Source of the DNA: Naegleria gruberi
Taxonomy: Eukaryota
Direction: 5' to 3' (one strand)
NCBI GenBank assembly: GCA_000004985.1
Contig: GG738847.1
Length of the DNA stretch: 64,000 bases
The notes beneath the pieces were generated by a model. That model searched no databases. It was not told the DNA's origin and saw nothing but the letters and a program-made list of their open reading frames with translations. The stretch's first letter is position 1. The number at the start of each line of letters is the position of its first letter. Made by a program: the position numbers and the translations under genes. Shown here piece after piece: positions 6,587-53,035 of this stretch.

Positions 6587-6597
6587 TTGGCGCCAAA
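6587..6597. promoter_or_regulatory. palindromic E2F-like site TTGGCGCCAAA, 14 bp upstream of the TDP1 ATG
   Basis: The motif is read from the sequence. It matches the TTTSSCGC E2F consensus on both strands. Confidence 0.3.
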
Positions 6598-6679
6598 CTT
6601 TTTTGAAGTTCGAGTAAAATTTCGAATTGACTTGCATAATAAAAATTTTTAAGTTTTTGAATAGTAATTTTACAAATAA

Positions 6680-9600
6680 TTATTCTTCTACTTCTGGTTC
6701 ATCTTGTTGTTCATCATATTGAGACAAATCTATTGTTAAAGTCTTTGAGGACTTGGTACTAATATCTCTCATAATACCAACCAAAGACTTGGCATCAGTG
6801 TAAAAGTTTTCTTTCAATGAAATGATAATAAATTGACACTTCAAATCAGTTAGACCATTCACAGAACGTTTGATATAATTGGCAACCTTATTAACGTTAA
6901 CATTGTCGAGAGCAGCATCAACTTCATCAAGAATGTAGAATGGAGATGGATTATATTTGTGAACAGAGAAAAGTAAAGCAAGAGCAGCAACAGTCTTTTC
7001 ACCACCACTCAATTGTGCCATATCTCTGTAACGTTTAAGAGGTGGCATGGCATTAAACTTAATTCCGTGCAAGTATGGCTCATCAGTATCTTCCAATAAC
7101 AAATAGGCTGTACCACCAGGTGTCTTGTCAGATTTTGTCAAGTCTTTGTAAATACTATCAATGGATTGAGAAATTCTATCATAAGCTTTCATGAAGGCTT
7201 CCTTTCTCTTCTTCTTGACTTCTTCAAAATCTTTCTTAATCTTAGTTGTATCTTGTCTAGTTTGCTTATATTCTTCGAGGGTATCTTTGTATTTCTTAGA
7301 AATGGCATCATATTTACCAACAATGGCTGTAGTTGGAGCTAATCTTTCAATTTCTTCTTGAAGTTCAAGCAATTTGTTTTCAAAGTCCTTTTCAATGGCT
7401 TCATATTCCTTGATATCTTTGAGATTTCTCTTTTCCTTTTCAATGCTAGAGAAATCGAGAGTGACAAATTCTTGAGAGAGGGATGATGTTTCTTCTTGTG
7501 TTTGAGAAATTGGGAAAGACTCACTGAATCTGAGTTCTCCTTGAACTTCTTCTCCTTCTGAGTATTTTCTCTTCTTTTTAGATTTACCTGCAGATTTACT
7601 TTGCTTTCTCTTCTTTCCGTCTTCTTCTTCGGATTCTTCTTCAGATTCCTCTTCAGACTCTTGAGTTGAACTTAGTTTACCCTTGATGGATGGCAATTCA
7701 ATTTCTTCTAATTTACATTTCATGAACATTTCTTGTCTCCTATTTCTGAGTTGTTCAATTTGATTTTCCTTAGCTGTGATTTGTTTAGCCAACTTGATGA
7801 GTTCATCATAAACAGATTGTAAAATCTTCTTCAATTCATTCATTTCAGTTGTCTTGTCATCTACTGAAGATTGTGACGATTTCATTTCTTCAAGTGCTTT
7901 CTTAAAGTCTTTCTCGATAGAAATTAATTCAGTTTCAAGTTTCTTGCACTTATCCTTCTTTTCACTCAAGGTCTTTTCTTCCTTTTCAACATCCTTTTCT
8001 AATCTATCGAGTGATGTTGTAATATCTCTCTTCTTGATCAATTCTAGTTGATTGGTAAGTCTTGAAATCATAGTTTCGAATCTAGATCTTTCCTTATCAG
8101 CATGTTCTTCAGCCTTCTTCTTCTTATTTTCATAATCTCTAATATTCTTAACACCAAGCTTCTTAGATAAATCAGCAAAGATACCTTCTTCAATTTCAGC
8201 AATTTCACCTTCAATCTTTTCAATTCTGCTATCAAGTGATGAAATCTTAGTGCTTAAAGTGTTAATTGTTGGTTCTTCGGCCTTGATTTCCTTTTCAATA
8301 TCTCTCAATTCAGAATCAACATCAGCAATCTTCTTCTTTGTAAAGTCGACATCAGTTCTGACAACAAGTTTACCTTCAAGTTGTTTGATTTCAATTTCAA
8401 GTCTTGACAAAGTAGCACTATCAGAGGCTTCTTCTCTTGTAAGATTTTGAACATCTGAAACAAGCTTATCTCTGTCATTCTTAAGCTTTTCAATATCACT
8501 TTCCTTAAATCTGGAAGTTCTTGTTCTGACATCAGCCAAACCACCTGTAACCATACCTGATTTGCTAATAACAGTACCATCAACGGTAACACCTTTAACT
8601 TTGAAACCTAAACCTGCATCATCATCAAAACAAATTGATGTTGCTTCATCATATGTATCACAAACGATAGTGTTGCCAAGAGCATACTTAAATATCTTAT
8701 CAACCTTATCTTCATATGTGATAACATCAGTAACAAGTTTAGCACTAGAGTTTGGAATCTTTCTCAACTTTTCATTGACCTTCTTAGCTTTGACAGAATC
8801 AATTGGAATGAAAGTACAACTTCCAAGTCTTTGTTCTTTCAAATACTTGATACATTCTAAAGCTGTCTTTTCAGTTTCACAAACAATCGAATTCAAATGT
8901 TTACCAAGTGCAACATTAACAGCAACATTGTACTTTTCACGGGTGATTGTGAATAAATCACCAACTTTACCTAGAACACCTGGGAATAAACGTTTCATAC
9001 CTTCGAGTGCTTCCTTGAATCTTAATTCTCTTTCACTGTCTCTCTTTTCAACTCTAGCTTCTTTCAACTTATCTCTAATTTGATGTAATTCGTCTTCGGA
9101 TTTTTGCTTTTTTCTAGCCTTTTCAGTAGTTGACTTGGTGAGTTCATCCTTCTTTCTATTCTTCTCATCTAATTCAGTTTCTAAAGCTTGCAAAGATTCT
9201 TCCAACTTTTCAAGTCTCTTTTGGTTGGTCTTCTTTTGATCATCAAGTTGCTTTTTTCTTTCTTCGAATTGTTCAACTTTTTGAAGTACAGTTTTTTGAG
9301 ATTCAAAGAGAGTATTCTTTTCACCAGTGAGTGTTGAAAGTTCTTGTCTCAAACTCACAGTTTCTTCACTAGCTTGAACTTTACGTTTGTTATATTCCTC
9401 AAGATCAGCACCAGAAATTTTAATTTCTTCGGAACTTTCTTCTTTTAACTTGGCTTCCATTTCATCTCTTTCTTGTTCTAGCTGCTTAATTTCATCTTCC
9501 AATTTTTCAACATCTTTAGTATGTTTGTCTAATTGATTCTTCTTTTTATCCATTGACTTGGAACGATTTTTAAGACTATTCTCCAAATGGTTAATTTCAA

Positions 9601-10576
9601 CTTTCAATGATGCCAAAGATTCTCTCTTCTTTGTGACATCATCCTTTTGTCCTTTAACTTTGCTTGTAGCCAACAGGTTTTGTTTTTTCAATTTAGCCAT
9701 TTCCTTTTTCTTTTCATTGATTTCTTCGTTGGTTGTGTCTTGCTTTGATGATAAGTGACTCTTTTCCTTGTTGAGACGGGTCAATTCAGATTTATATTTA
9801 CGAATATCCTTTTCAATATGATACAATTTCCACAAAACAAAGTTTGCTTGGAGTTCTGTATGTTCAGCTGTTGCATCATCAAATCTGTCAGCATCTTTCT
9901 TTTGATTTTTAAATTGAGTCTTTTCTGTACTAATACCCTTCTTCTTTTGGAAATTTGTAATCAACTTGTTATTTGATTGTTCATATTCTTCTTTTAGGCG
10001 ATCATATTCTTTCTTATATTCTTCAGATCCAGAAATTTGTTCAAATAATTTAGTTAATTCTTGTGGTGATTTAGAAGCAACATTTTCTACATCACCTTGA
10101 AAAACTAAAAAGTTTCTAGCCTTTGTTAAAATACCAAAGCTCTTCAATTTCTTTTCATAGTCTGCTGCTTGCACAACCTTCTTATTAATTTTATATTCTG
10201 TTTGACCTTGTGATGAAATAGTTCTTGTGAATTCTACTTCGGCTCCTTCCTCTTCTTCATCCTCTGGAGAAGTTTTAAAAACCAATTTAACATAGGCTGT
10301 TCTATTTTGTTGTGTAGCAAGACCGTCACCATTGAAAATCAATTGTTTTAAATGTGAAGAACGCAAATATGTTGCTCTGAGACCCATAACGAAACTGATG
10401 GCATCCATCAAGTTACTTTTACCACTACCATTTGGACCAATCACACAAGTAAAGTCATCAAAAGGACCAATGATTTGTCTTCCTTTGTATGATTTAAAGT
10501 TTTCTGCTTCAATTCTTACGATTTTGCCGTGATTAGTTGAATCGTTAGATTGTGATTGACTTGTTGTTTGGCTCAT
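6680..10576 (-). CDS. SMC1: structural maintenance of chromosomes protein 1 (cohesin SMC1)
   Basis: The N-terminal region IVRIEAENFKSYKGRQIIGPFDDFTCVIGPNGSGKSNLMDAISFVMG closely matches the SMC1 N-terminus and Walker A. It has long coiled coils and a hinge. The C-terminal signature is LSGGEKTVAALALLFSVHKYNPSPFYILDEVDAALD. It is a single 1298-aa ORF. Confidence 0.9.
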   Translation of the reverse strand: MSQTTSQSQSNDSTNHGKIVRIEAENFKSYKGRQIIGPFDDFTCVIGPNGSGKSNLMDAISFVMGLRATYLRSSHLKQLIFNGDGLATQQNRTAYVKLVFKTSPEDEEEEGAEVEFTRTISSQGQTEYKINKKVVQAADYEKKLKSFGILTKARNFLVFQGDVENVASKSPQELTKLFEQISGSEEYKKEYDRLKEEYEQSNNKLITNFQKKKGISTEKTQFKNQKKDADRFDDATAEHTELQANFVLWKLYHIEKDIRKYKSELTRLNKEKSHLSSKQDTTNEEINEKKKEMAKLKKQNLLATSKVKGQKDDVTKKRESLASLKVEINHLENSLKNRSKSMDKKKNQLDKHTKDVEKLEDEIKQLEQERDEMEAKLKEESSEEIKISGADLEEYNKRKVQASEETVSLRQELSTLTGEKNTLFESQKTVLQKVEQFEERKKQLDDQKKTNQKRLEKLEESLQALETELDEKNRKKDELTKSTTEKARKKQKSEDELHQIRDKLKEARVEKRDSERELRFKEALEGMKRLFPGVLGKVGDLFTITREKYNVAVNVALGKHLNSIVCETEKTALECIKYLKEQRLGSCTFIPIDSVKAKKVNEKLRKIPNSSAKLVTDVITYEDKVDKIFKYALGNTIVCDTYDEATSICFDDDAGLGFKVKGVTVDGTVISKSGMVTGGLADVRTRTSRFKESDIEKLKNDRDKLVSDVQNLTREEASDSATLSRLEIEIKQLEGKLVVRTDVDFTKKKIADVDSELRDIEKEIKAEEPTINTLSTKISSLDSRIEKIEGEIAEIEEGIFADLSKKLGVKNIRDYENKKKKAEEHADKERSRFETMISRLTNQLELIKKRDITTSLDRLEKDVEKEEKTLSEKKDKCKKLETELISIEKDFKKALEEMKSSQSSVDDKTTEMNELKKILQSVYDELIKLAKQITAKENQIEQLRNRRQEMFMKCKLEEIELPSIKGKLSSTQESEEESEEESEEEDGKKRKQSKSAGKSKKKRKYSEGEEVQGELRFSESFPISQTQEETSSLSQEFVTLDFSSIEKEKRNLKDIKEYEAIEKDFENKLLELQEEIERLAPTTAIVGKYDAISKKYKDTLEEYKQTRQDTTKIKKDFEEVKKKRKEAFMKAYDRISQSIDSIYKDLTKSDKTPGGTAYLLLEDTDEPYLHGIKFNAMPPLKRYRDMAQLSGGEKTVAALALLFSVHKYNPSPFYILDEVDAALDNVNVNKVANYIKRSVNGLTDLKCQFIIISLKENFYTDAKSLVGIMRDISTKSSKTLTIDLSQYDEQQDEPEVEE

Positions 10577-10742
10577 TGTTTAATAAATAAATTAATTGTT
10601 GTTTGTTCGTCGATCTAGTAATGTTAATTATTTAGGCTGGTGATGATGTTAAAGCCTTTTGATGAAATCGACTAATTCTTAGGGTGATACACTTTATCAG
10701 TGATCGTTTTTGAATATTTTTTTTTGTGATTATTTTTCTTCT

Positions 10743-10773
10743 TGGCGCGAAATGCTGTGAATTTGGCGGGAAA
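10743..10773. promoter_or_regulatory. pair of E2F-like sites (TTGGCGCGAAA at 10743-10753 and TTTGGCGGGAAA at 10762-10773) in the SMC1 / Sfi1-like divergent promoter
   Basis: The motifs are read from the sequence. They are GC islands in an AT-rich 370-bp bidirectional promoter. Confidence 0.4.
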
Positions 10774-10949
10774 CTTTTCTATTATTTAAAAGAATTTTTA
10801 AATCTTAGAAATCATTTTGTTACTGTGAAGATATCCTTAAGTATTAGATAGAACAAGTTTATCAGTATTAGAATATTAATTCTGTTGTTGTATTTTATCA
10901 CACTAAACTTGGCGCTCTTCAAAATACAATTTAAATTTAGCCTTAAAAA

Positions 10950-13900
10950 ATGCTCAAACAACCAACAACAAAACCATTGGCTATTGTTGGGGTCAATAAT
11001 AATCAACAACAGAGAAGAGTTACACAGAGTAATTTACCTCAACGACAAGCTGTCTCTTCATCATCACGACCATCGACATCATCCCGAACACCACAACCAC
11101 CAACAAATTCAACTAGGAAAACCACATCAAACAATAATCATCAGACAAACAATAATAGACTTCGACAACAATCAGCACACAACGTTCATACAACATCTAA
11201 AAATTCTAAAATACCTGATAATAGAAGTTCTTCTAATGAACCTCTTATTAGATATCACAATTTGGATGATGAGGAACCGGAAACTTTGGATGAAGAGGAA
11301 GAAGATATTCAAACAGTATCTGTGATCCCTTCTTTTGGAAGAAATATATTTCATCAACAACGAGTTAATATCAATGGCGATTCAGTAATGAAAATTAGAT
11401 CACCAATAATACAAACCCCTGTAAATATTCCATCAACAGAACAAAAAGTAGTAATCAAACCACCAACAAAGTTGACTGATTCAATAAGTGCCCTCACTAA
11501 ACAATATAGAAAACTGGGCGATTTCCCATTTCAACCAACAATACAACCTGAAAAACAAGAAAGCTTTTCGGATGAGTGGTCAAGGAAAAAACAAGCTGCA
11601 TTAGAAAGGAGAAAAAACAAATCGAGGAATGAATATCTTGCAAGAAAAGTAGTTGATCATTGGAAATGGTTTGCAAGAAAAGGATTGGATGAAATTAAGG
11701 CCAAAAATAAGAGGAATATCGTTTTAATATTCAAAACATTTCAACATTGGAAAAGAAGAAAAGAGGAAAGAGATAATTTATGGAAAAAAGAATTTATTGT
11801 ACAAACAAGACAAAAGTTCACTTTGATGCAAACCTATTTCAATCAATGGTTGACTCAATTGGAAATATCGAGAGAAAGAGAAGAACTCTACACAGATAGA
11901 GCTTACAGTTTTTTGAAACGAAAATTGGAACACAAAGTGTTGAAATCTCTTAAATTATTTGTTCTGCAAAGAAAAGAAAGAAGAGAAATTATTGATATAG
12001 CTGATACTTTTGCAAATAGAAGAATCATTAAGGGCTCACTAAGAAAAATTAAGGAAGGTTAGTATATTTCAATTACAATAATAAGGACTAACATATGATA
12101 GTTAAAATAATGCAGGATAAGGACACAGCAGCTGATCATTTCTGGCAACATCAACTATTCATTAAAACAATAAGAAGTATTAAAATGTATATAGGAGAAG
12201 AAAATTACAACAAGGAATGTTTGGCACTGGAGTTTTTCAATAATAATCTGAAATCAAAATCACTGAAATCACTTGCCCTGTACTATAGAGCCAAAGAGCT
12301 CAAAAGAAAAACAATTGAACAGAATAATATGAAAGCTGATAATTTCTTCAAAGATCGTCACATTCAAGAATACTTTAAAGCTTTGCAAGATTTTTGGCAA
12401 AGTAGAAAACAAAAACAAATCAGAGAGCAAACCTCATTTACTTATTACAGAAATACTAATGTCAAGAATTTCTTTGGATATTGGAAAATGTGCAGTTCAA
12501 ATTCAATCCATTTCAAGGAGTTGGAGGTATGTTGATTATTAAGGAAATTGATTCAAATAACTTATTGCTTAGTCAATCATCCAAAAGAAGGAAAGAAAGG
12601 CTCTTTTAAAAGAGTTTTTTTCTCAATGGAAAGAAAAATTAAATGGGAAAAATCTCATGCTCAATATGGAATATGAAGCTAAACGATTTTATGACCACAG
12701 TATCAAATGCAGAGCCTTTATAAGTTTGAAAACTGTAAGTTGAACACCATGATATTTCTAATATCGATTAGTATAATAATTTTAGGCAAGAAAAAGAAGA
12801 ATCAAAAAACAAATCAATTAGTTTTAATTCGTTTTCAGTTGTGTATAAGGCATTCAGACATTGGAAGGTAAGTTGTTTGAAGAAGTTATTACTGATGAAA
12901 TAATTAGACAAAATTTGAATTAGAGAGAGATAAAACATCAGAAAAGAATAGGATTGTTGATAATTTGATTAGAACCAAAAACAAGCAACTTATACTGAAA
13001 GTAATAGCCAATCTAAAGTCTCATAAAAATAAGAAAAAGGCCAAACAAAATGAAGAAGATAAGAGAGTTATGGAACTACGAAAGATATTACAAAGAAAAA
13101 AGATGGAAAGAATTCTTAAATCATGGAAAGATTATCAAAATTACAGAACACAAAGAAGAGTTGATTATGAAAGAGCAGTTATGCACTATCAAAGAATTCA
13201 AAGAGAGAAATCAATGAAACAACTCTACGCATACATGTTATACAAGAGAAGGAAATATTGCCTCTATGAAAAAGCTGAAAAATTCACAATGAATCACTCA
13301 ATCAAGAACATATTTCAGTATTGGTTTGGAATAGTGGATGACAGATTGAATACTAAATGTAAAATCAAGAAGGCTGAGTTTACTTTCTCTAAACATTTAG
13401 CCAAGAAAACCCTTCGTTCCTTTAAGAATTATGTTTATTACAAAAGAGCCAAATCCAAGTTAGAAATTGAAGCTATGGAAAATAGAAAAGCACTCCTAAT
13501 GAGAAGAGGCATGATACAGTTAATGGAAAGTTCCTTTGAGGAAAAAACAAAACGAATGAACATGATTGAAAGGTTAAATCTTAAAAGTACTGCTGAAGAT
13601 CTGAAGAAAATTGAAAAATTTGCTAGGCATTGGCTTTATATTACAATAAGAAATGCTCACAAGAGAGGATCTGGTCTTTTTAGTGGATACAGAAGTTTGA
13701 CCATTCAAAACACCAAAGAAGAGGAACCATCCTCAAACAAATTTGATAGAGAACCTACAAGTCAACTAAAATATCCAAAAAGAAGAGCTTCTCCAAGAAG
13801 ACCATCAGATGTTGATCGTCTAAAGTTTAATGATTCAAATTCTGTTACAATGGCCCCACCATCAAGAGTCAAGTTTGAAAGTTTTCCTTCTCCTAGTGAG

Positions 13901-14332
13901 ACTAGTAGTATTTCAAGTGAATTGCTAGAACAAGAGGAATTAGTCAGTAGAATTGAGAGAATTGAAAATCTCTCCTCTGTTGTAGAAGAAACAAATAACA
14001 ATATAACTGAAGAACCAGTTTATACGAATGATACAAGCACTACTGAAGAACAAGAGGCTATCCTTCTTCAGGTTGATAAAATCAAATCCATTCTTGAAGA
14101 ATTTGATAATAATTGGACACCAGTATACGAATTTGAGAAGGAAAGAAGAAAAGCCTTGAAGGAACTCTTAGATCTCGAAGAAGATGTTTCCATCATGCAA
14201 GAGTATGCAACTGAATTGTCGCACCTAGAGAAGAGAGCAAAAACCTATTTGAAATTTAAGCGGGAAGAACTTCCAAAGCTTTTGAGTCAATTACATGATT
14301 GTCTACATTCTGTGTTGCCGCTTTCTGAATAA
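10950..14332 (+). CDS. Sfi1-like centrin-binding repeat protein, 5 exons
   Basis: Exons are approximately 10950..12057, 12102..12526, 12573..12734, 12772..12867 and 12908..14332. Introns are 44, 46, 37 and 40 nt with GTTAGT, GTATGT or GTAAGT donors and CTAAC/CTAAT branches. The spliced frame is continuous. The protein has about 23-33-residue repeats ending in a conserved Trp followed by basic residues: HWKWFARKG, FQHWKRRKEERD, FNQWLTQLE, FWQSRKQKQ, FGYWKM, FSQWKEKL, AFRHWK, LKSWKDYQNYR and FQYWFGIVDD. This resembles Sfi1 repeats. The 37-nt third intron is tentative. Confidence 0.45.
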
Positions 14333-25937: not shown

Positions 25938-26066
25938 TTTTTTAAAGTTTTTAAAAGAAATATCAGAGTTATTCTTAATCTACAGCTCAACTACTACACA
26001 GACATATTTAATAATAATTATCATTGAGATTTGAATAAATAATTTTTATATATTTTTATTTTTTTG

Positions 26067-27911
26067 TTATTTCTCTGCTACTTTAATAGAAGCACCATTT
26101 TGTACAGTTTGGGATGATACAGGCTTACTACAGGTTGGGTTAGCAATTTGAATATCTCTTCTAACCTTCTTTGCAGCTTCTTCTTGTTCTTCTAACCTTT
26201 CTCTCTTAATCTTGGCAACAATTTCAGCTGTTGTTTCTGTTGGAGATGGTGGTTTATATCTAACTGGATGGAGAACTTTGGTTTCCCTTTGGTAAACCAT
26301 CTTAGTTTGAGGAGATCCAACAGGAGTGATTGGTGTTTGTTCACCAGTACTTGTAGAGCTACTTACAGTTCTACAAGGAGTACCAGTAACAGGTTGAGAT
26401 TCTGCAGGAGAGGTTGAAACAATAACAGGTGTTGATTGAAGCTTTTGTTGTGGTGGCACTGGTTGTGGAGGATAACCCATTTGATGTGGAGGATAAGCCA
26501 TTGGATATCCGTGAGGTGGATATGGGTATGTAGCTTGATCTGGATGTGGTGGGTATGAATAACCAGGTTGAGGAGGATATGGATAAGGTGGAACAGTACC
26601 AGATTGTGGATATGAATATCTGTAATCATAATAGTAAGGAGGAACATAAGGTGGTTGTTGAGGTTGTCCATCTTTAGATTCTGTTGGTTGAGGTGGATAA
26701 GCACCTGGTGGTGGAACAGAAGTTTGAGGTGGATAATACATTGGATATGGAACAGGTTGTGAACCATCATGTGTTGGTGGAGGAACACCATATGGATAAT
26801 GATAACCTGGATGTGGTGGATACATATGAGGATAACCTGGGTGTGGAGGATATGGAGGATATGAATAAGCAGTACCTGTTGTTGGTTGTGGAACTGGTCT
26901 TGGAGGTTGATGAGCAACAACTCCATGAGTAGTTGGTTGTTGTTGGACAGTTGTACTTGTTGTTGTTGGAGCTGAGGTTGAACTAGTTGTGCTTGGAACA
27001 GGTGTAGTAGTTGTTGTAGTATTGGAAGCAGATCTGTTAACATTGTGCAATTTATCCAAAGCTTCAAGTGCCAAAGCTTCTTCACTCTTCATCTTTTGAG
27101 CAACTGGTGATTTACCCTTATTCAATTGGAAACAAGAGAATAATTGATCACCACTTGCTGATGATTCTTCAACTTGTTGTGCTTGTGTATTTTTACCAGA
27201 AGTAATATTACATCTCTTTCTATATGGCCATCTTCTAATACCTAATTCTCTACATCTCTTCTTCAGTGATGATTCATCAACTCTTAAAGCAACGCATGCT
27301 TCATGTAAAGGTAATTTGAAATATTGTGAAATGGAAAGATAACTTAAATTAGCAGCATTATTAACAAAGTAGTCTGATGGTGGTGGACTTCTAAAGCTCT
27401 TGGCAATATGAGGAGTGGAGGAAGATACTTGTGGAGAGAGATGGGCATTAGCAATGGAAGGTATCGATACGATTGGGGTAGGTGTAGTTGGTTGTGGTGG
27501 AATTTGTTGTGGTTGGGTGGTAGATGTGGTTATTGTTGTTGGAATGTGAGAAGTTGGGATGGTTTCAACACGTGTTGTTGAAATGGTAGTTGGTTGTGAA
27601 GGGATTTCTTGTCGAGGTTGAGGTGAATATGATTCAACAGAACTCGATGTAGAGGAGTGATCAACCAATGGTGTAGTATTTCTTGGGATTGGTTCATGTG
27701 TACTAGGATCATAGGTTTGAAGTTTGGCCCACAATGGATCAGCAGCATAATTAGTTGAAATGACGGTTCTCATATTATATTTTGTTATTACATCATTCAT
27801 TCCTAATTCTTCATGTTTCAGAACATCAGTAACGAGGTAGTAAATATTATTTCTACTGATTAAATCTTTACGAACAAAGTTGGTGTTGGTGGTGCCTGTT
27901 GAGTGCATCAT
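26067..27911 (-). CDS. RWP-RK domain transcription-factor-like protein with a long Pro/Tyr-rich low-complexity C-terminal half
   Basis: RWP-RK motif: LSISQYFKLPLHEACVALRVDESSLKKRCRELGIRRWPYRKR. It is followed by about 250 residues of degenerate PPHPGYP, YPPQP and YPYPP repeats. Embedded opposite-strand and alternate-frame ORFs, such as 26363..27085, are artefacts of the repeat. Confidence 0.65.
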   Translation of the reverse strand: MMHSTGTTNTNFVRKDLISRNNIYYLVTDVLKHEELGMNDVITKYNMRTVISTNYAADPLWAKLQTYDPSTHEPIPRNTTPLVDHSSTSSSVESYSPQPRQEIPSQPTTISTTRVETIPTSHIPTTITTSTTQPQQIPPQPTTPTPIVSIPSIANAHLSPQVSSSTPHIAKSFRSPPPSDYFVNNAANLSYLSISQYFKLPLHEACVALRVDESSLKKRCRELGIRRWPYRKRCNITSGKNTQAQQVEESSASGDQLFSCFQLNKGKSPVAQKMKSEEALALEALDKLHNVNRSASNTTTTTTPVPSTTSSTSAPTTTSTTVQQQPTTHGVVAHQPPRPVPQPTTGTAYSYPPYPPHPGYPHMYPPHPGYHYPYGVPPPTHDGSQPVPYPMYYPPQTSVPPPGAYPPQPTESKDGQPQQPPYVPPYYYDYRYSYPQSGTVPPYPYPPQPGYSYPPHPDQATYPYPPHGYPMAYPPHQMGYPPQPVPPQQKLQSTPVIVSTSPAESQPVTGTPCRTVSSSTSTGEQTPITPVGSPQTKMVYQRETKVLHPVRYKPPSPTETTAEIVAKIKRERLEEQEEAAKKVRRDIQIANPTCSKPVSSQTVQNGASIKVAEK

Positions 27912-28464
27912 CTTTGTTGGTTATTGTTTTGTTGTGTTTTTATTTGTTTGTGAGAATTTTGTGTGAGGCTTCTTTGGAAAACTCTAGGCCACAACAAAGC
28001 AGCTAGTTGCGTTGTTTGCGAGATGACTTGTTTGCTTTACTTATTTTGACGTAAGGAATGGAAAATAAAGGGTTAACAAACGAACTTTGAGCCGCTTAAA
28101 CGTCTTTATATTCAAGCGCCCTTTGGACGATGTTTCCAAATATGAATTTTGTAAATTTTTGGGACTGACGGCAAACAACAGACATTGACGAAAACCAACG
28201 AAGGAGGACTCTAATTAGAACGCATGAGAATTAATTTACCATCTATATTAAAACGTATTGTACCGTTTTGTATTTAAAATAATATTCTGGACTTTATTAA
28301 AAGATGCATGAAGAAAATTTGGTCTCTAACTTTTAATCCATCATTCCAGACTGTTGTTAATTCCTCAAATGGTTTTGTGATGAAAATTTTCATTGGATAT
28401 TTTCCAATATAACTGTATTTTACAATGTCTTGCCTTCTTTAACAGAAAGTTTTGAAAACTCAAA

Positions 28465-30971: not shown

Positions 30972-31466
30972 TTAATGGTGACCATGATGACCATGTGGAT
31001 TTTCCTTTCTTTCCTTAGCAATTTGATGAGCAACATATTCCATCAAATCAGTGTTAGAAAAAGTACCAGACTTGAATTTTTCAAAGTTTCCAACCATGAG
31101 AGCCTTGCAAACACCAGAATCCAATTGCTTGGAACAGATGGTTTCAATAGTTTCATCTTGGTTATCCAATGATTTTCCTTGCTTCTTGAGTTCTTCAACT
31201 TGACATTGAATATCCTTGCAAGCTAAAATAATATTGTTATAATCCGCCAATACATTTTTTTAAAATTACGTACAATTCTTCAAAGTTTTATACATTGGAG
31301 AATCAGAGACAACACCAGTCATATCAGTTTTTGGAGAACCGGCAGCAATGTGAGTAGTGAAGAGAACACCACCAACACCCAAGAAGAGTTTGGTCAAAAA
31401 ACGAGAGGACATTTTTTTTAAAGTATTTACAAAAAATTTAAAGTACCCAAGACAATCAAAAAGCAA
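30972..31466 (-). CDS. small secreted Cys-containing protein with a His-rich C-terminal tail, 2 exons
   Basis: Exon 1 is approximately 31466..31274 and encodes a signal peptide MSSRFLTKLFLGVGGVLFTTHIAAG. A 51-nt GTACGT intron follows. Exon 2 is 31222..30972 and encodes CKDIQCQVEELKK...ICSKQLDSGVCKAL...HGHHGHH. The alternative ORF start in the track lacks an ATG, which supports the spliced model. Confidence 0.45.
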
Positions 31467-33577: not shown

Positions 33578-33582
33578 TTTTT

Positions 33583-45534: not shown

Positions 45535-45607
45535 TCCCCCTTAGCTCAGTCGGTAGAGCGTCAGACTGTTAATCTGCAGGTCGGTGGTTCGAGCCCACCA
45601 GGGGGAG
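45535..45607 (+). tRNA. tRNA-Asn (anticodon GTT)
   Basis: Acceptor stem TCCCCCT/AGGGGGA. D-arm GCTCAGTCGGTAGAGC. Anticodon loop CTGTTAA. T-arm GGTGG-TTCGAGC-CCACC. Discriminator G. A downstream T-run GTTTTTG follows. Confidence 0.9.
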
Positions 45608-45667
45608 AAGTGTTTTTGTAGCAATATTGTTGAATACACAAGTTTTGTTATTTTTAAAATTAAAAAA

Positions 45668-46071
45668 ATGTCCACAACAAATACTGAAAATACCATTCCT
45701 ATCATTCAACCACTTGGTAGGTTAATTATTCAACAATAGATTTGGAATATAATCGGAATAGAATTAATTGATAAGTGTATCGGATCTTCAATTTTTGTAT
45801 TGATGAAGGATGATAAGGAGCTTGTCGGAACTTTGAGAGGATTTGATGATTATATTAGTATGTAATTATAAATAATTATTGAATAATTAATTCATGAAAA
45901 ATAGATATGATTTTGGATAATGTGACTGAATATTCATATAGTGAAGATGGATCGTCTAGGACTGAAAGTAAATTACCTTCCATTATTTTGAACGGAAATA
46001 ATGTTGCTATTCTTGCTCCAGGCTTGAGTGAACCTCCAAAACATGAAATTAATCAAGATTGTAGATTTTAA
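45668..46071 (+). CDS. LSM5: U6 snRNA-associated Sm-like protein LSm5, 3 micro-exons (absent from the ORF track)
   Basis: Exons are approximately 45668..45716, 45762..45857 and 45905..46071, with 45- and 47-nt GTAGGT/GTATGT introns. The spliced product is [88 protein letters not shown]... It is collinear with human LSM5 ([45 protein letters not shown]...ILLNGNNITMLVPG). Confidence 0.7.
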
Positions 46072-46181
46072 ATTATTATTATTGAACCTGTAGAAAACTA
46101 AAAGTAAAACTAGATTTAAATTGCTCATTCTTTTTGTGAATTTTACAATATTCTAATAGAGTTAATTGTAAGAAACTTTAT

Positions 46182-47639
46182 TTAATCATCAGACAATTCA
46201 TCACCATTATCATCTTGCATGGTATTTCCAGCTCCTTGATATTTGGATTTATGTTGGGGCAGGTCAGTTGGATTATTGAGAACTCTTCTAATTTCTGAGG
46301 CCATACTTGTGTTTTGTTTGTGAAGTTTACAAACTTGTTTGATTTGATGCTTTTGTTCCTTTGAAAGTTTTGATCCGTAGTAAGTGACAAAAGTGAGGAG
46401 AGCTTGATACCAAACAGTGTGAATGTTGGCCTTTTCTGGTGGAATATTTAAGAATTTAGCAAAATAGGAGACAACACCTTGAATAACTTGTGTCGGAAGG
46501 GCATATCTCTTTTCCAAGAATACCTTAATAAATATGCAATTTGTGTTGGTATAATCGAGAGAGGCAATTTTCAATAAAGCAGCAGCAGAATGCATAACTG
46601 GAATGGTCATCTTTTTCAAAATACCTCCAATAATGTGGGCTTCTTTAACAGTACATTGACCATCTTCACAAAGTGGAATAATGAAACCTTTAAATAAAGC
46701 AGCTGGTCTCCACGTTGCCTTAATAATTGATTGATACAAGTGGTGATTTAACTTTAAGTGTTTACGGGAAGTGAATTGAGAATTGATTGGGGACTTTTTC
46801 TTATTGGAAGTGAGAATATCATTTCTAACTCTTGGCAATAAAATCATGTTCAAAAATCTTTGAGAAATTGAATCATTACCTTGAGAGACAAATAATTTAG
46901 TTGCTTTGTATACAGCTTGTGTAGACCACTTATCTGGTTGAGTTAAATAAAGGATTTCTTCCCAATTTGAAAGAGTTGGAATAATGGCAAAAACTTTTGG
47001 AAGTTTACCAGATCTATACTTTTTCAAAATTGTTCCCAAAGCTCTATAGGAAGTAACAACCTTCTTGTGAAGCTTTTCTTCCAAGGCCTTTTCATCAAAT
47101 GAAAGAGTTGAAACCATTGTTGGATCAACATGGCCATGTTGTGAAACTTCCTTTTCTTTGATTTTTTGAATAATCATTTCAGAAATATTGATTGGTTGTC
47201 TATTTTCTTCTTCTTCTGTACCTAAAAAGAAGTTCAAAGCGTTTTCATCCTCTTCTTCCAATTCAATTTCAACATATTCCGAAGTTGATTTTTTCTTTTC
47301 ATTTCCTGATGTTGGAATATCTAAAACACTACTAATTGGTTCATCATCGTCATCCATTTCCAATTCTACTTGTTGTCTCTTAACTGCTGATTCAATTCTT
47401 TTTGTTGTCTTTGCATCAAGAAATTCTTCTTCTTCTTCCTCTCCATCATTATAATCATCACCACTAATATTAACTTTCATTTTCTTTTGAAGTTTTTTAA
47501 GAGCTCTTCTTCCTTGTGGAGCATTTTGTTGTTCTTCATCCAATTGTTCATGTTCCAAATATTCTCTGTGCAATGGTTTTGTTGCTCTTTGTTGAATCAA
47601 CTTTTTGACTGTCTTGGCTTGTTTGGTTTCCTTTGGCAT
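46182..47639 (-). CDS. BYSL: bystin (BYSL/Enp1) 40S ribosome biogenesis factor
   Basis: Collinear with human bystin: LPKVFAIIPTLSNWEEILYLTQPDKWS, RFLNMILLPRVRNDI, FKGFIIPLCEDGQCTVKEAHIIGGILKKMTIPVMHSAAALLKIA and YALPTQVIQGVVSYF. ATG at 47639 (MPKETKQ). Acidic N-terminal region. Confidence 0.85.
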   Translation of the reverse strand: MPKETKQAKTVKKLIQQRATKPLHREYLEHEQLDEEQQNAPQGRRALKKLQKKMKVNISGDDYNDGEEEEEEFLDAKTTKRIESAVKRQQVELEMDDDDEPISSVLDIPTSGNEKKKSTSEYVEIELEEEDENALNFFLGTEEEENRQPINISEMIIQKIKEKEVSQHGHVDPTMVSTLSFDEKALEEKLHKKVVTSYRALGTILKKYRSGKLPKVFAIIPTLSNWEEILYLTQPDKWSTQAVYKATKLFVSQGNDSISQRFLNMILLPRVRNDILTSNKKKSPINSQFTSRKHLKLNHHLYQSIIKATWRPAALFKGFIIPLCEDGQCTVKEAHIIGGILKKMTIPVMHSAAALLKIASLDYTNTNCIFIKVFLEKRYALPTQVIQGVVSYFAKFLNIPPEKANIHTVWYQALLTFVTYYGSKLSKEQKHQIKQVCKLHKQNTSMASEIRRVLNNPTDLPQHKSKYQGAGNTMQDDNGDELSDD

Positions 47640-48408
47640 TTTTTTTTCAAATTCAAAATTATTGCTGAAAATTTGATAATTGAACAATTTATGAATACAT
47701 AAGAAGAATATTTGATGAAGGATGATTAAAGATATTAAAGAAATTGTAAATGTTTCATGAACAATTAATAAATTTATTTATAAATAATAATAATATGTTA
47801 ATAATAATATTAAAATAATAAAAAGGAGGCTTGTGATGAATGGCATCAGAGTATTTTGAATTCATGATGGAAAATAGTGTACGGTTTTTGTGAAGGATTA
47901 CTGAACAAGGCTTGTTGCTATTTCATCCATACAAATCGTAAACCTCATTGCAATTATTTCCCATTGCCAATCCTGTTTTACTTTGGAAAGGCAACAAGAA
48001 ACAACACACAAAGTTTCTATATCACACCCCTTTGGTAGAGAATATTGATGTTGCTTGATACTCTCACCCTAAAAGTATGAAAAGAGAGGAGAAATCTATT
48101 CGAGATACAAATGTTTGTATATTCGTGCTCATCACAATAAGGGATCAATATGGAGAATAACAACAATCCCGATTCATCATCATCCACAATCCGTACAAGT
48201 TTAGATCATACCTTTTACTAACAGTCATCATTTAGCCTTTCCTCCCTTATTTTTTTTAATTATTAAATTAATTTAAATATATTTAATTAAATTATTAATA
48301 TTTTCATCAACACTATTCAAAATGTTCATCAAAATTGATTTTAATATTTATTAAATATTTAATAGTATTAAAATAATATAATATTTAATAGTAAAATATT
48401 AAAAAAAA

Positions 48409-51091
48409 ATGTCTGATGTAAAATCGCCCACCGTCTTGGGCATGGGTTTCAACTCATCACAAAATAATTTCAAATTGCCATCCTCTCACCTAGTGGGTAA
48501 TGTAAAAGTTGCTGATAAGAGTTGGAGAAATGCTCGATCTCTTTCCGGACTTCATGATGGTGGACAAAATGTAACAAAATCACTCCTACGTTCCGATATT
48601 ACTATTGAGGATAGTTCTTGTATTTGTGTAAATAATCAACAAAATTATATTGTACAGGCTGGTGTTGGAGGAAGATTTCAAACTATTAAAGTAATTCAAA
48701 AATCAAGGAGTGATGCTAAACAATTTACAAACACAACAACAGTTTTGGATAAAAAGGATTCACCAATACCAAATACTAATATATTTTCACCACAATTTAG
48801 TGGGAAATTTCCTGGACCTATTCACTGTATGGATATGTTAAATCAATATCTTCTTATTGGAAGTTCTAATGGAGAGTGTTATGTAAAAACTATGGATGTT
48901 GCTAGTGAAAAGAATAATTGTCTTCTTGATGATTCTCCAAATAGTATTGTTAAATGTCAGACATTTTCTCATTCAAAATTAAAGAAATCAGATCAATCAT
49001 CTATTCTCACAACTCCTTCTCCAGAACAATACACATTCAGCACTAAAATTAATAATGTACAAATAGAAAGATCAGAAAATCCAAAGAATTTTCACACATT
49101 GGAAAATAATAGACTTCACATTTGGTCTTTTGAAAAGGATGATGCTCCAATCCAAACTATTCAAGGCTCTAGAAGTCCTTTATGGTGCAGTTCATGGTCT
49201 AGTTTTAACTCTAATTTAATTCTCATTGGTGGTGTCAGTAAAGCTGTCAAGTTGATAGATACAAGAAGTATGGGAATTGCAAATGCCAACATCCAATTTT
49301 CTCATTGTGATGCAATTACTGATGTACAGTGGAGTCCTCTTCTTCCTTACTGGTTTGCCAGCTGCTCAACTGATGGACTCATTTATGTGTGGGATCAAAG
49401 ATATGCTGCAGAACCAATTAAAATTTTGGAAGGACATAACAATGTAGTCAAGAAGATATCTTGGTCTCGTTCACATGTTGAAGTTCTCGCCAGTGGTGGT
49501 GTAGATCATTCTGTAAAGTTGTGGAGTTTAAGAACAGAGCCTCATCATGTTCTGACAACATTAGATAAGGGCTTCTTTAGTGATTCAATTTTAGGTCTTA
49601 GCTTTTCAAATGTAACACCAAATCAATTGTTTGCCAACTCTGCTAGTGGTGAATTATTGGCCATATCAGTGGGCTCTCAAGTATTAGATCCACTTGTACA
49701 ACATAGATTCTTTGAAGAAGGATCAGAATCTAGTGGAAAGAAAGATAGCGAAAAAGACAATATTGAAAATGTTGAAACAAATATTTTCCATAGAAATTTG
49801 ACACAAGCTTTCAGTGATGTGGAGCAAATTGCTACCAAACTTAAAAATCAAAACAAACTCGAGAAGGCTCTCAAATTGCTCGAACTCTGTAAACCAAAAA
49901 TTAATACAGGAACTGAAAAGGCAAACACCAATCCAAAGGCAAGATTTAAGAAAGAACTTGAAGATTACTCTTACCATATTCCACCAAACTTTTCACTTGC
50001 TAAAAAGCCAGACGAGAAGAGAATTGATGACTTGATTTTGAATTGTAAAATATTGAGATTTGTACAAAGAAAAGAATTTAGTGAAATAGTTTCTTTAGAA
50101 AGCAAGTTGTTAGAATTGTTAAAGTCTGATACTCAAAGAATAGAACTTGGTACCATTAGAGATGTTATCAAACTTTACCTTGCACATGATTACAAGAAGG
50201 GAATGTCACTTGCTATTGAAATTGCTTATATTCTTAAAGATCAATTTGAAGAATATCAAAAGATTGTCAAGGAAATTATCAATCCATCCATATACGAAGT
50301 ATCTCACAATCAATCTCTGAGAGAAAGTGGCTACAGAAGTTTAGCTAAAGCTTTCCAAAATCAAGAGTACATAATCGAACAATTGAAATTGCAAAAAGAT
50401 GTTATTGGAGCTTTGTGGGGATATTCAGATAGCTCCAAGATGATTATCAACTATGTAGGAGATACCTATCTTGACATCATTTCTGCCTCGGTTTTGAGAA
50501 CCTATCTTAATGCTCTTCTGTGCCAGCAACAGTATGACAAGTTTTTCATTGTCTGTACAAAATTACTCCAAAAAATTCAAGGTTTTGATATTGCTGTAGT
50601 CATTCGTGATTTGATGAAAACCGTTGCCAATCCAGATTTTACCAAGCTTTTGAATACTGAAATTCTTAACTCTGAGGTTTGTTTATATTTTCATTCATGT
50701 TATTAACATTTAATAGCTTCTTAATGTTTTAGAAAATAAGAAGCCTTCTGCTTCTAGATTATTCCCTGCTGCTAAATGTTTGGATATTTTGAATCAGACT
50801 AAAGGTACAGTCTTTTCTGTCATTAGAATTGCTATCTTCTGCCCAGCAATACCGAGCTATATGACTGGCGTTTTGGAGCTTGCACTTCAAAAAATCTATG
50901 ACATTTATGAGTTTTCATTTGCTCAACTTGTGGATTCGGCACAAAAACCACTAGCTAAGAAATTTGCAGAAGAGTTACTTAAAAGGTTCGAGTTGAGAAA
51001 ATTGGCTGCCAAATCAGACGATTTAACAGAAATACAAGAAAAGGTGGCTGACCTTGTCCCAATATTGGAAAATGTTTACAATGAAGAATAA
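48409..51091 (+). CDS. WD40-repeat protein with a C-terminal alpha-helical domain, 2 exons, function unassigned
   Basis: Exons are approximately 48409..50676 and 50717..51091, with a 40-nt GTTTGT...TTAACATTTAATAG intron. WD repeats: DVQWSPLLPYWFASCSTDGLIYVWD and LASGGVDHSVKLWSL. The helical C-terminal half continues in frame across the intron (...ILNSE/LLNVLENKKPSAS...). Confidence 0.55.
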
Positions 51092-51254
51092 ACCCTATGG
51101 ATTATTTACTGTGTGCTCATAATTATTGAACTTCAATACGATTGTTACGAGATAGTAATGTACTAAATCTTATCATTTGGTTGCAGTTCTCTGACCCAGA
51201 AAATTCAATACTCGTTTCAACTTGATTGTCCTTTGATTACTTTGTAAAACAAGT

Positions 51255-52904
51255 TTAAGGCACCAAAAATCTTGACCCATTCTTGCTACTGTCAGCAGAA
51301 GTGTTTGAACCTCCAAATGACTTGTAGAGTGAAACCAAATGGCTTGGCAATTGACCTTTCTTCTTTTGTTTTGACATTACAGACAGTGATTTGTTAGCCT
51401 CAGCAAACTCTTCTTCGAAAGATTTCTTCTTTTTTGGTTTGAGGGATAGTAAGCTATGACTTTGGGAGTGTTCGTTAGGATAAACAATTTTACAAGTTCT
51501 GTCCCTTGCCGATTTTTCCTTTGAGGTTACTGCTCTCTTTTGTAGTGGTTCAAATATGACTGGCTCTGAAAATTCCTCTTCTCTAAAAGATTCGGGAAGT
51601 GATTGAGAATGAAGTTGAGGCTGGTCTTGTTGCATTTCTGAAGTATTTACATTGGAAAAGTTAGTATTCCACATTGAAAGAGCTTGCAAAACAGATATTG
51701 CTGGTTTTTCAACCTCTTCATCCACATTTTTCTTGATATTCTTAACAGTATTTCTGGCACTTTGAATCATCTCTTCTTTTGCATCGAGTAACTTACTGAG
51801 CTTTCTTGGAGTCAGGTCAATATCAACATGTTTTAATGCAAGAGCCCTTCCTCTCCACTTTTCCATTTCTGACATGGATGTCTTGTATCTTTCTGTCAAT
51901 CTTGTTAACTCATTGGCCATAACATCGAGCTCTGTATGTAACACATCATTGTCTGCAGAAGCATTTTTAGAATCATAGACATCCTCTTCTAGCAATCGTA
52001 TCTTTTCTTGATCTGAGAGTTGTTTTATCTGCATTTCTCTAATTAAATTTTCTCTCTTGATTAGATCTTCATCTCTTACTTGCTTATCCCTTTTCAATTT
52101 TTCATTTTGAGAAAGTATGCTTCTGATTTGTTCCAAAAACACATTGATATCAGAAGGAGGTCTATTTACCATGACCTCCTTAAAGAGGCCACTTCGAACT
52201 ATAGCATCCCACACGCCATCATTCTTTGTTACTGGTTCTTGTCTACTAACTGATTCTTCGAATTTCTTCTGATATTCCGATTCAATTTGTTTCCTAAATT
52301 TTTCCAATTCTACAGCAGATGTTTGAGATTCCAATGTTTTTACATGAGATAGTTTCTCTAATTGAGCGTGTAAACTCTTCACTATTGATCTGAGCTCAGC
52401 ATTTTCCTGCTCATAAAATTTATAGATATGCATTTCGCTCTCCATTCTCGATTTTTCAATTGATAATGTTTTAATTTTAAATTCATCCTCCATGCTTTTA
52501 GTTTTCATTTCTTCTGCAAACATATCAAATTCTTGCTTTGCTGTTACCCTAAGCTTTTTAATTTCCTTCCTCAATTCCTCAATTAACGATTCTCGTTGTT
52601 CTCCTGATTTACGAAGAAAATCGAGAGCACTTGTCTGTTCTTCAATCTTTTCTTTTAGTACTCCATTTTCCTGTCTTAATGCTTCAAATCTAATATGATC
52701 AATGTTATGAAATTAATAAATCTCTTCCGACACCTACTCTGATAAAACCTCCTTTACCGTTGCTTTTCTTCTCCCTTCTTTACTTGTTCTAACTTTTAGA
52801 CGTTTCTGATCATTCTCCTCTGAATAGGAAGTACTCTCTCCTCCAGCATCTAAGGAAGATGAGGCTGCTGCTGTGGGAGATACAATATGATACCTTACAG
52901 GCAT
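51255..52904 (-). CDS. coiled-coil protein, 2 exons, unknown function
   Basis: Exons are approximately 52904..52738 and 52689..51255, with a 48-nt GTAGGT intron. It has heptad-rich sequence throughout. The ATG at 52904 is in an A-rich context. Confidence 0.5.
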
Positions 52905-53023
52905 TTTTTATCTTTTGCCCTTTCGAAACGAACTTTAAAGTTGTTGTTTGTCTCTTCTAATGATGATGATTTTAAAAATTGGTTATTTACTCTGTAACGT
53001 TCTTTTTCAAACAAAGGCGATTA

Positions 53024-53035
53024 TTTGGCGGGAAA
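53024..53035. promoter_or_regulatory. E2F-like site TTTGGCGGGAAA in the divergent promoter between the coiled-coil gene and the ARM-like gene
   Basis: It is an identical 12-mer to the site at 10762-10773. Confidence 0.35.

What the first reader, a model, noticed from the sequence alone, without database searches (positions are those of the whole stretch)
6587..53035. E2F-type GC motifs sit exactly in the promoters of chromosome-cycle genes
In otherwise AT-rich intergenic DNA I find four copies of the TTTSSCGC family. TTGGCGCCAAA is a perfect palindrome at 6587-6597, 14 bp upstream of TDP1. TTGGCGCGAAA at 10743-10753 and TTTGGCGGGAAA at 10762-10773 lie in the SMC1/Sfi1-like bidirectional promoter. 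The identical 12-mer TTTGGCGGGAAA recurs at 53024-53035 between the coiled-coil and ARM-like genes. SMC1, TDP1 and Sfi1 are classic S-phase or mitosis E2F targets in animals and plants. The recurrence of an identical 12-mer argues against chance. It also nominates the two unassigned genes at 51255-55877 as cell-cycle or DNA-metabolism genes.
Basis: partly seen in the sequence, partly recalled or inferred. Interest (0 to 1): 0.55.

Follow-up and report, generated by a model that had tools for sequence, protein, structure and literature searches.

The report
E2F-type promoter sites in Naegleria
Five short GC-rich sequences in this Naegleria gruberi window look like real binding sites for the conserved cell-cycle regulator E2F, an expected rather than surprising result, except that one sits in front of a flagellar gene.

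Summary
The window is Naegleria gruberi NEG-M, scaffold_3:480,001-544,000. The reported motifs exist; one coordinate is off by one. I found a fifth site 50 nt upstream of a TPX2-like gene. TTSSCGSSAA occurs 5 times against 0.13 expected. All five lie in the 17% of the window that is intergenic.

N. gruberi encodes E2F, DP, a DEL/E2F7-8-like protein and Rb. The DNA-recognition helix of its E2F is identical to human E2F4. E2F-like sites recur in the SMC1 divergent promoter of N. lovaniensis and Willaertia magna, and weakly in Acrasis kona. The TPX2 gene (jgi_45723) is the one published as mitosis-specific.

The E2F reading is therefore well supported for SMC1/Sfi1-like and TPX2. It is weaker for TDP1, whose site is absent in N. 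lovaniensis.

The inference that the genes at 51-56 kb are cell-cycle or DNA-metabolism genes is not supported. One is a CFAP69 (cilia/flagella) homologue and the other is an orphan coiled-coil protein. N. fowleri keeps the GGCGGG core in that promoter but not the T/A flanks.

This is a new instance of a known regulatory element. A speculative extension is E2F-family control of flagellar or basal-body genes.

The parts
1553..1564 (-). E2F-like site TTTGGCGGGAAG (minus strand). It ends 50 nt before the ATG (1614) of the TPX2-like gene.
   Evidence: The gene is NAEGRDRAFT_45723. This is the TPX2 homologue listed by Kennard et al. and called mitosis-specific.
1614..3713 (+). TPX2-like gene (jgi_45723), the likely target of the site at 1553-1564.
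   Evidence: Pfam TPX2_importin, E=1.1e-20. Exact match to XP_002682286.1.
6587..6597 (.). E2F-like palindrome TTGGCGCCAA(A). It starts 14 nt upstream of the TDP1 ATG, in a 106-nt spacer after the SMC1 stop codon.
   Evidence: Not conserved in N. lovaniensis (L001 13907-14023).
5083..6573 (-). TDP1 gene (tyrosyl-DNA phosphodiesterase).
   Evidence: Pfam Tyr-DNA_phospho, E=1.8e-65.
6680..10576 (-). SMC1 (cohesin) gene.
   Evidence: Pfam SMC_N and SMC_hinge. Best hits are SMC1 proteins.
10742..10752 (.). E2F-like site TTGGCGCGAAA in the SMC1/Sfi1-like divergent promoter, 166 nt from the SMC1 ATG.
10762..10773 (.). E2F-like site TTTGGCGGGAAA, 10 nt from the previous site and 187 nt from the SMC1 ATG.
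   Evidence: E2F-like sites occur in the orthologous promoters of N. lovaniensis, W. magna and A. kona.
10909..10915 (+). Weak half-site TTGGCGC, 35 nt upstream of the ATG of the Sfi1-like gene.
10950..14332 (+). Gene with Sfi1-type [FL]xxW[KR] repeats and several exons. Its first exon is annotated in GenBank as 'retrotransposon gag/pol polyprotein'.
   Evidence: The N. lovaniensis orthologue is 1056 aa with no Pfam match. No Pfam or PDB match.
53024..53035 (.). E2F-like site TTTGGCGGGAAA in the 229-nt divergent promoter, 120 nt from the coiled-coil gene ATG and 99 nt from the CFAP69 ATG.
   Evidence: N. fowleri keeps the GGCGGG core at the equivalent place.
53038..53057 (+). Block TTTCAAAAAAACAAATCTAC, 19 of 20 nt identical in N. 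fowleri, just downstream of the E2F-like core. Possibly a second cis element or the core promoter of CFAP69.
   Evidence: local alignment; exact shared 16-mer. Not repeated elsewhere in the window above chance.
51255..52904 (-). Orphan coiled-coil gene with one short intron near its 5' end.
53134..55877 (+). CFAP69 (cilia- and flagella-associated protein 69) homologue, read here as three ORF segments.
   Evidence: Pfam CFA69_ARM_rpt in all three segments, E=6e-12, 4.5e-24 and 4.4e-18. N. fowleri orthologue FDP41_007929.

Best explanation
The five TTSSCGSSAA-type elements are binding sites for E2F-family proteins of Naegleria gruberi. The candidates are the NgE2F-NgDP heterodimer (NAEGRDRAFT_54558 and 50903), presumably held in check by the Rb homologue, and/or the two-domain DEL/E2F7-8-like protein. 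The sites lie in very short, often divergent promoters. They couple transcription of a set of chromosome- and spindle-cycle genes (SMC1, TPX2, probably the Sfi1-like gene, perhaps TDP1) to cell-cycle progression.

Shown here: the motif, its non-random number and strictly intergenic placement, the presence of the factors, the conserved recognition helix, conservation in the SMC1 promoter, and mitosis-linked expression of TPX2.

Inferred: that these proteins bind these sites, and that binding drives periodic transcription.
For: - Motif and statistics.
- Factors: the NgruE2F, NgruDP, NgruDEL and NgruRB sequences are in the source data of Medina et al. 2016, PMC4862756. E2F and DP are exact N. gruberi proteins with Pfam E2F_TDP plus E2F_CC-MB or DP domains.
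- Recognition helix: the NgE2F DNA-binding domain aligns to the E2F4 chain of the E2F4-DP2-DNA crystal structure 1CF7 at E=7e-25. The stretch [24 protein letters not shown] is identical.
- N. lovaniensis: the only GGCGCC in 23.9 kb lies in the SMC1 divergent promoter, as TTTTTAGGCGCCAAAA, about 204 nt from the ATG. The N. gruberi sites are at 166 and 187 nt.
- W. magna: the only TTTSSCGC in 23.9 kb, plus a CCCGCCAA, lie in the 108-nt SMC1 promoter.
- A. kona: TTCCCGC and GCGGGAG lie within 75 nt of the SMC1 ATG.
- TPX2 (jgi_45723) is reported as mitosis-specific in synchronised cultures.
- Within the window, 4 of 7 chromosome/spindle-related genes have a site, against 2 of 22 others (Fisher p=0.018).
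Against: - No binding or expression test of the sites exists.
- Genome-wide enrichment could not be computed. Only 64 kb of N. gruberi was available and no more could be fetched.
- The TDP1 site is absent from N. lovaniensis.
- One site fronts a flagellar gene (CFAP69) rather than a cell-cycle gene. Its T/A flanks are not kept in N. fowleri.
- MutS, PARG and BRCC36 in the window lack sites.
- The Acrasis evidence is not significant on its own (about 0.13 by chance).
Confidence: 0.72

Rival explanations
1. The same E2F-family sites serve, at least at some promoters, the amoeba-to-flagellate differentiation programme rather than the division cycle. They would switch flagellar and basal-body genes such as CFAP69 and the Sfi1-like centrin-binding protein on or off. 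This would resemble E2F4/5-MCIDAS driving centriole amplification in animal multiciliated cells.
For: - The site at 53024-53035 lies 99 nt upstream of a CFAP69 homologue.
- The only GGCGGG in 21.4 kb of N. fowleri lies in the orthologous promoter.
- The SMC1 sites are shared with a gene carrying Sfi1-type repeats.
- In A. kona a perfect TTTTGGCGCCAAT lies 45 nt upstream of a gene with an ODAD1_CC domain.
- A 2025 review states that the factors controlling cilia genes in Naegleria are unknown, because RFX, FOXJ1 and XAP5 are absent.
Against: - There are only two or three anecdotal cases.
- Each promoter is divergent, so the real target may be the partner gene (the coiled-coil gene, or SMC1).
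- The N. fowleri site lacks the T/A flanks that E2F prefers.
- No expression data could be retrieved for CFAP69, the coiled-coil gene or the Sfi1-like gene.
Confidence: 0.13
2. The elements are bound by a different GC-box factor, for example a C2H2 zinc-finger of the KLF/SP type that recognises GGCGGG, and only resemble E2F sites.
For: - Three of the five sites share GGCGGG.
- The N. fowleri CFAP69 promoter keeps only TGGCGGG, without E2F-type flanks.
- A paper on KLF/SP evolution mentions N. gruberi (not read).
Against: - The variants GGCGCC and GGCGCG do not fit a GC box. They fit TTTSSCGC exactly.
- All five sites have a T-run 5' and an A-run 3' of the core, the E2F signature.
- The SMC1 sites in N. 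lovaniensis and W. magna are of the GGCGCC / GCGCCAAA type.
Confidence: 0.08
3. The matches are chance GC-rich words, or relics of a repeated element, and have no regulatory role.
For: - The motifs are short.
- The TDP1 site is not conserved.
- One GCGGGAA lies in coding sequence by chance, at 14260.
Against: - 5 observed against 0.13 expected, and all are intergenic.
- The flanks of the five sites are unrelated, so they are not copies of a repeat.
- The sites recur in orthologous SMC1 promoters of three other species.
Confidence: 0.05

Closest known systems
E2F/DP binding sites (TTTSSCGC) in G1/S and mitotic gene promoters of animals and plants
   Same: - Same consensus, including the two-sided TTTSSCGSSAAA form.
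- Promoter-proximal position, sometimes paired 10 nt apart.
- Cognate E2F, DP, DEL and Rb proteins are encoded in the genome.
- The recognition helix is identical to human E2F4.
- Targets include a cohesin subunit and TPX2.
   Different: - The organism is a heterolobosean (Discoba). I found no report of such sites there.
- Promoters are only 100-370 nt long and mostly divergent.
- One site fronts a flagellar gene.
- No binding or expression data exist for the sites.
E2F-like upstream motif of Cryptosporidium parvum (Oberstaller et al. 2013, PMC3734150, seen; paper not read, comparison from my own knowledge)
   Same: An E2F-type GC-rich motif stands out in the AT-rich, very short intergenic regions of a compact protist genome.
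   Different: That case rests on a genome-wide analysis linked to expression clusters. Here only 64 kb plus four orthologous loci were examined. The lineage is also different.
E2F7/E2F8 (DEL) sites, TTCCCGCCAAA (E2F8-DNA structure 4YO2; the site preference is from my own knowledge)
   Same: TTTGGCGGGAAA read on the other strand is TTTCCCGCCAAA. N. gruberi encodes a two-domain DEL protein. The NgE2F DNA-binding domain also matches the E2F8 chain 4yo2_A.
   Different: Nothing here tells whether DEL or E2F-DP occupies the sites.
E2F4/5-MCIDAS/GEMC1 control of centriole and cilia genes in vertebrate multiciliated cells
   Same: It links E2F sites with basal-body and cilia genes. That is the pattern hinted at by CFAP69 and the Sfi1-like gene.
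   Different: By my own knowledge, geminin-family co-activators are an animal feature; this was not checked here. The link in Naegleria is only a hint from two or three promoters.

Membership tests
E2F-family cis-regulatory site | Sequence matches the consensus TTTSSCGC (or its two-sided form) | tested here: met
   Four sites match TTTSSCGC exactly. All five match TTSSCGSSAA.
E2F-family cis-regulatory site | The genome encodes E2F and DP (and DEL) proteins | tested here: met
   The NgruE2F, DP and DEL sequences are in the PMC4862756 source data. E2F and DP are exact N. gruberi proteins XP_002668864.1 and XP_002674586.1. Pfam E2F_TDP at 1.3e-28 and 1.8e-18.
E2F-family cis-regulatory site | DNA-contacting residues of the winged helix (RRXYD helix) are conserved, so the specificity can be transferred | tested here: met
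   Alignment to 1cf7_A (E2F4) has [24 protein letters not shown] identical.
E2F-family cis-regulatory site | A pocket protein (Rb) is present as regulator | tested here: inconclusive
   A NgruRB sequence is listed in the PMC4862756 source data. I did not verify it by domain search or exact look-up.
E2F-family cis-regulatory site | Promoter-proximal location | tested here: met
   All five sites lie 14-200 nt upstream of an ATG and none is in coding DNA. Transcription start sites are unknown.
E2F-family cis-regulatory site | Conserved in orthologous promoters | tested here: inconclusive
   - SMC1: met in N. lovaniensis and W. magna, weak in A. kona.
- CC/CFAP69: only the core is kept in N. fowleri.
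- TDP1: not met in N. lovaniensis.
- TPX2: not tested, because no orthologous locus could be fetched (one search failed).
E2F-family cis-regulatory site | Enriched upstream of replication and mitosis genes genome-wide | not testable with these tools
   Only 64 kb of N. gruberi was available. Within the window Fisher p=0.018 by gene and 0.031 by promoter.
E2F-family cis-regulatory site | Target genes are transcribed periodically in the cell cycle | tested here: inconclusive
   TPX2 (jgi_45723) is reported as mitosis-specific. The rows for the other genes lie beyond the stored part of Data S2.
E2F-family cis-regulatory site | Physical binding by E2F/DP, and loss of regulation on site mutation | not testable with these tools
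   This needs EMSA, DAP-seq, CUT&RUN or reporter assays.
Sfi1 (centrin-binding repeat protein), for the gene at 10950-14332 | Tandem repeats of about 33 residues with a conserved [FL]xxW[KR], detectable by the Sfi1 profile | tested here: inconclusive
   Repeats are visible, e.g. VDHWK, FQHWK and FNQWL spaced 29 and 33 residues apart. There is no Pfam match at E<=1 and no PDB match.
CFAP69, for the gene at 53134-55877 | CFA69 ARM-repeat region | tested here: met
   Pfam PF21049 matches all three ORF segments and covers profile positions 3-631 of 719. The N. fowleri orthologue is named cilia- and flagella-associated protein by UniRef.

The most novel reading that the evidence does not exclude
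In Naegleria, which lacks RFX, FOXJ1 and XAP5, an E2F-family factor (E2F-DP or DEL) controls part of the flagellar and basal-body gene set that is switched on when amoebae leave the cell cycle and build centrioles de novo. If so, the E2F-centriole/cilia link known from vertebrate multiciliated cells would be ancient or convergent. The CFAP69 and Sfi1-like promoters here, and an ODAD1-like promoter in Acrasis, would be its first traces.
Probability: 0.12. Interest if true: 0.65.

Novelty: new member of a known kind. Interest (0 to 1): 0.33.

Why it matters
E2F, DP and Rb are inferred to date back to the last eukaryotic common ancestor. That inference rests mostly on the presence of the proteins. 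Cis-element evidence outside animals, plants and a few alveolates is sparse.

Canonical E2F sites, conserved in the SMC1 promoter across Heterolobosea, add evidence from Discoba that the target-site grammar is conserved as well as the proteins. They also give concrete sites and two named factors (NAEGRDRAFT_54558 and 50903) for experiments in an emerging model organism.

The CFAP69 case offers a cheap, testable lead on an open question: what controls cilia genes in Naegleria.

Tried and rejected
1. My first guess was Cryptosporidium, because the genome is AT-rich and compact and has an E2F motif. Exact protein look-ups showed Naegleria gruberi.

2. A concatenated 2030-aa query (TPX2 + coiled-coil + CFAP69), meant to fetch several orthologues in one search, returned nothing. 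This wasted one of three searches. As a result, TPX2 orthologous promoters and promoters of canonical N. gruberi E2F targets (cyclins, E2F, DEL) could not be fetched.

3. Attempts to extend the N. gruberi sequence beyond the window with the look-up of encoding contigs failed.

4. I looked for expression rows for SMC1, TDP1, the Sfi1-like gene, the coiled-coil gene and CFAP69 in Kennard et al. Data S2, using scaffold coordinates. The stored file is truncated before those rows.

5. Identity of the coiled-coil gene: Pfam, PDB by sequence and by profile, and an exhaustive HMMER search gave no informative homologue.

6. GCGGGAA at 14260, 90 nt upstream of the MutS ATG, was considered as a sixth site. 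I rejected it. It is coding sequence (KFKREE), and N. lovaniensis has AAACGAGAA there.

7. The block ACAAATCTAC was tested as a second recurrent motif. It is not above chance in the window.

8. A global MAFFT alignment of the promoters did not align the sites. I used local alignment and word counts instead.
Full report
**Source and gene map**

Exact protein look-ups place the window in Naegleria gruberi NEG-M. An actin gene at window 59158-60264 is listed at scaffold_3:539158-540264 in a published table. The window is therefore scaffold_3:480,001-544,000.

The DNA is 29-40% G+C, and genes are densely packed with few introns. Pfam scans give this order:
- TPX2-like (1614-3713 +)
- an LRR protein
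- TDP1 (5083-6573 -)
- SMC1 (6680-10576 -)
- a gene with Sfi1-type repeats (10950-14332 +)
- a MutS homologue, a mitochondrial carrier, PIKfyve, WD40 proteins, an RWP-RK factor, PARG, a tRNA thiolase, a formin, BRCC36, an M24 peptidase, RPL23A and bystin
- an orphan coiled-coil gene (51255-52904 -)
- a CFAP69 homologue (53134-55877 +)
- an ankyrin/TIG protein and two actins.

**The observation**

All four reported motifs are present. The second lies at 10742-10752, one base left of the stated position. Only the 10-mer TTGGCGCCAA is a true palindrome.

TTTSSCGC has exactly four matches in the window, against 0.65 expected.

A fifth site was missed. CTTCCCGCCAAA at 1553-1564 is the 12-mer with one mismatch on the other strand. 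It ends 50 nt before the ATG of the TPX2-like gene.

The two-sided form TTSSCGSSAA occurs five times against 0.13 expected. All five lie in the 16.9% of the window outside genes. Their flanks are unrelated, so they are not copies of a repeat.

In an unbiased k-mer scan of the intergenic DNA, GGCGGGAA and CCCGCCAA are the best words that are not low-complexity.

**Are the factors there?**

The source data of Medina et al. 2016 (PMC4862756) contain N. gruberi E2F, DP, DEL (an E2F7/8-like protein with two DNA-binding domains) and Rb sequences.
- The E2F and DP sequences are exact matches to XP_002668864.1 (NAEGRDRAFT_54558) and XP_002674586.1 (NAEGRDRAFT_50903).
- They carry the Pfam domains E2F_TDP plus E2F_CC-MB, and E2F_TDP plus DP, respectively.
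- The E2F DNA-binding domain aligns to the E2F4 chain of the E2F4-DP2-DNA crystal structure 1CF7 at E=7e-25. The recognition stretch [24 protein letters not shown] is identical.

Transfer of the TTTSSCGC specificity is reasonable, but it is an inference.

**Conservation**

*SMC1 promoter.* SMC1 orthologues gave loci from N. lovaniensis (L001, syntenic over PIKfyve-carrier-MutS-Sfi1-like-SMC1-TDP1), Willaertia magna (L002) and Acrasis kona (L005).
- In N. lovaniensis the only GGCGCC in 23.9 kb lies in the SMC1 divergent promoter, as TTTTTAGGCGCCAAAAGCGCCCGC. It is about 204 nt from the ATG. The N. gruberi sites are at 166 and 187 nt.
- In W. magna the only TTTSSCGC in 23.9 kb (GCGCCAAA) and a CCCGCCAA both lie in the 108-nt SMC1 promoter.
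- In A. kona, TTCCCGC and GCGGGAG lie 68-74 and 10-16 nt upstream of the ATG. This is not significant alone.

*TDP1.* The TDP1 upstream spacer of N. lovaniensis has no such site.

*Coiled-coil/CFAP69 pair.* The divergent arrangement is kept in N. fowleri (L003).
- The only GGCGGG in that 21.4-kb locus lies in the 206-nt promoter.
- It sits 13 nt from a block that is 19 of 20 nt identical to N. gruberi 53038-53057.
- The T-run and A-run flanks typical of E2F sites are not kept there (AAAATGGCGGGTTTGG).

*TPX2.* Orthologous promoters could not be fetched, because a concatenated query failed.

**Expression**

Kennard et al. (bioRxiv 10.1101/2024.01.08.573270) list jgi_45723 as the N. gruberi TPX2 homologue. 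They state that a Naegleria TPX2 homologue is among the mitosis-specific genes in heat-shock-synchronised cultures. The window gene is NAEGRDRAFT_45723. Rows for the other motif-bearing genes lie beyond the truncated part of their table.

**Interpretation**

The best reading is that these are E2F-family sites that tie a chromosome- and spindle-cycle gene set to cell-cycle progression.
- Support is strongest for SMC1 (and its divergent Sfi1-like partner) and for TPX2.
- Support is moderate for the coiled-coil/CFAP69 promoter.
- Support is weakest for TDP1.

Within the window, 4 of 7 chromosome/spindle-related genes carry a site, against 2 of 22 others (p=0.018). MutS, PARG and BRCC36 do not carry one. 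A GCGGGAA just upstream of MutS is coding sequence and differs synonymously in N. lovaniensis.

The motif does not mark the genes at 51-56 kb as cell-cycle or DNA-metabolism genes. One is a CFAP69 homologue. The other has no informative relative by Pfam, by PDB, or in an exhaustive HMMER search.

**Rivals**

- Chance or repeat relics are excluded for the SMC1 promoter by statistics and conservation.
- A GC-box factor is unlikely. The GGCGCC and GGCGCG variants and the T/A flanks fit E2F, not a GC box. However, the N. fowleri CFAP69 site, which keeps the core only, leaves some room.
- The most interesting rival is that some of these sites serve flagellate differentiation rather than division. 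The hints are CFAP69, the Sfi1-like gene, and a perfect TTTTGGCGCCAAT 45 nt upstream of an ODAD1_CC-domain gene in A. kona. A 2025 review notes that the factors controlling cilia genes in Naegleria are unknown. The evidence is anecdotal, and every case is a divergent or compact promoter with another candidate target.

**Novelty**

Two library searches found no paper describing E2F motifs in Naegleria promoters. E2F sites are well known in animals and plants, and an E2F-like motif has been described in Cryptosporidium. This is therefore a new instance of a known element in a lineage where it was expected from the protein repertoire. Interest is modest. The flagellar-gene angle is the only part that would surprise a specialist, and it is unproven.

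Noticed in passing
window 53038-53057; L003 9364-9383: The block TTTCAAAAAAACAAATCTAC is 19 of 20 nt identical between the N. gruberi and N. fowleri coiled-coil/CFAP69 promoters, including an exact shared 16-mer. The rest of these promoters has diverged. It lies 9-13 nt from the GGCGGG core. It may be a second cis element or the CFAP69 core promoter.
   Followed up: partly
L005 9269-9279 (Acrasis kona): A perfect palindromic E2F-type site, TTTTGGCGCCAATAA, lies in an 89-nt spacer 45 nt upstream of the ATG of a gene with an ODAD1_CC (outer dynein arm docking) domain. This is a second heterolobosean case of an E2F-like site in front of a cilia-type gene.
   Followed up: no
window 10950-12062: GenBank EFC49543.1 is named 'retrotransposon gag/pol polyprotein'. 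It appears instead to be the first exon of a longer gene with Sfi1-type [FL]xxW[KR] repeats that runs to 14332. The N. lovaniensis orthologue is one 1056-aa protein. This is probably a misannotation and a truncated model.
   Followed up: partly
window 53134-55877: The search with the 382-aa middle ORF segment of the CFAP69 homologue returned an N. fowleri protein and an ENA protein, but no N. gruberi protein. The gene may lack a model, or have a very different one, in the N. gruberi annotation.
   Followed up: no
L002 4228-9892 (Willaertia magna): The annotated 1685-aa gene divergent from SMC1 carries MutS domains II-V. It probably fuses the Sfi1-like gene and the MutS gene, which are separate neighbours in N. 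lovaniensis and N. gruberi.
   Followed up: no
window 26001-28000: This stretch has the highest GC skew in the window (0.335) and raised G+C (0.384). It coincides with the RWP-RK transcription-factor gene (26067-27911, minus strand). Probably biased, low-complexity coding sequence.
   Followed up: no
window 31244-31250: TCCGCCAAT lies in the 932-nt PARG/tRNA-thiolase divergent spacer. It is either a weak E2F half-site or a CCAAT box, and lacks the second flank.
   Followed up: no
window 59158-60264 and 62487-63599: Two actin genes lie 2.2 kb apart on opposite strands. In Kennard et al. Data S2 both rows show positive log2 changes in both time courses. I did not read the column headers.
   Followed up: no
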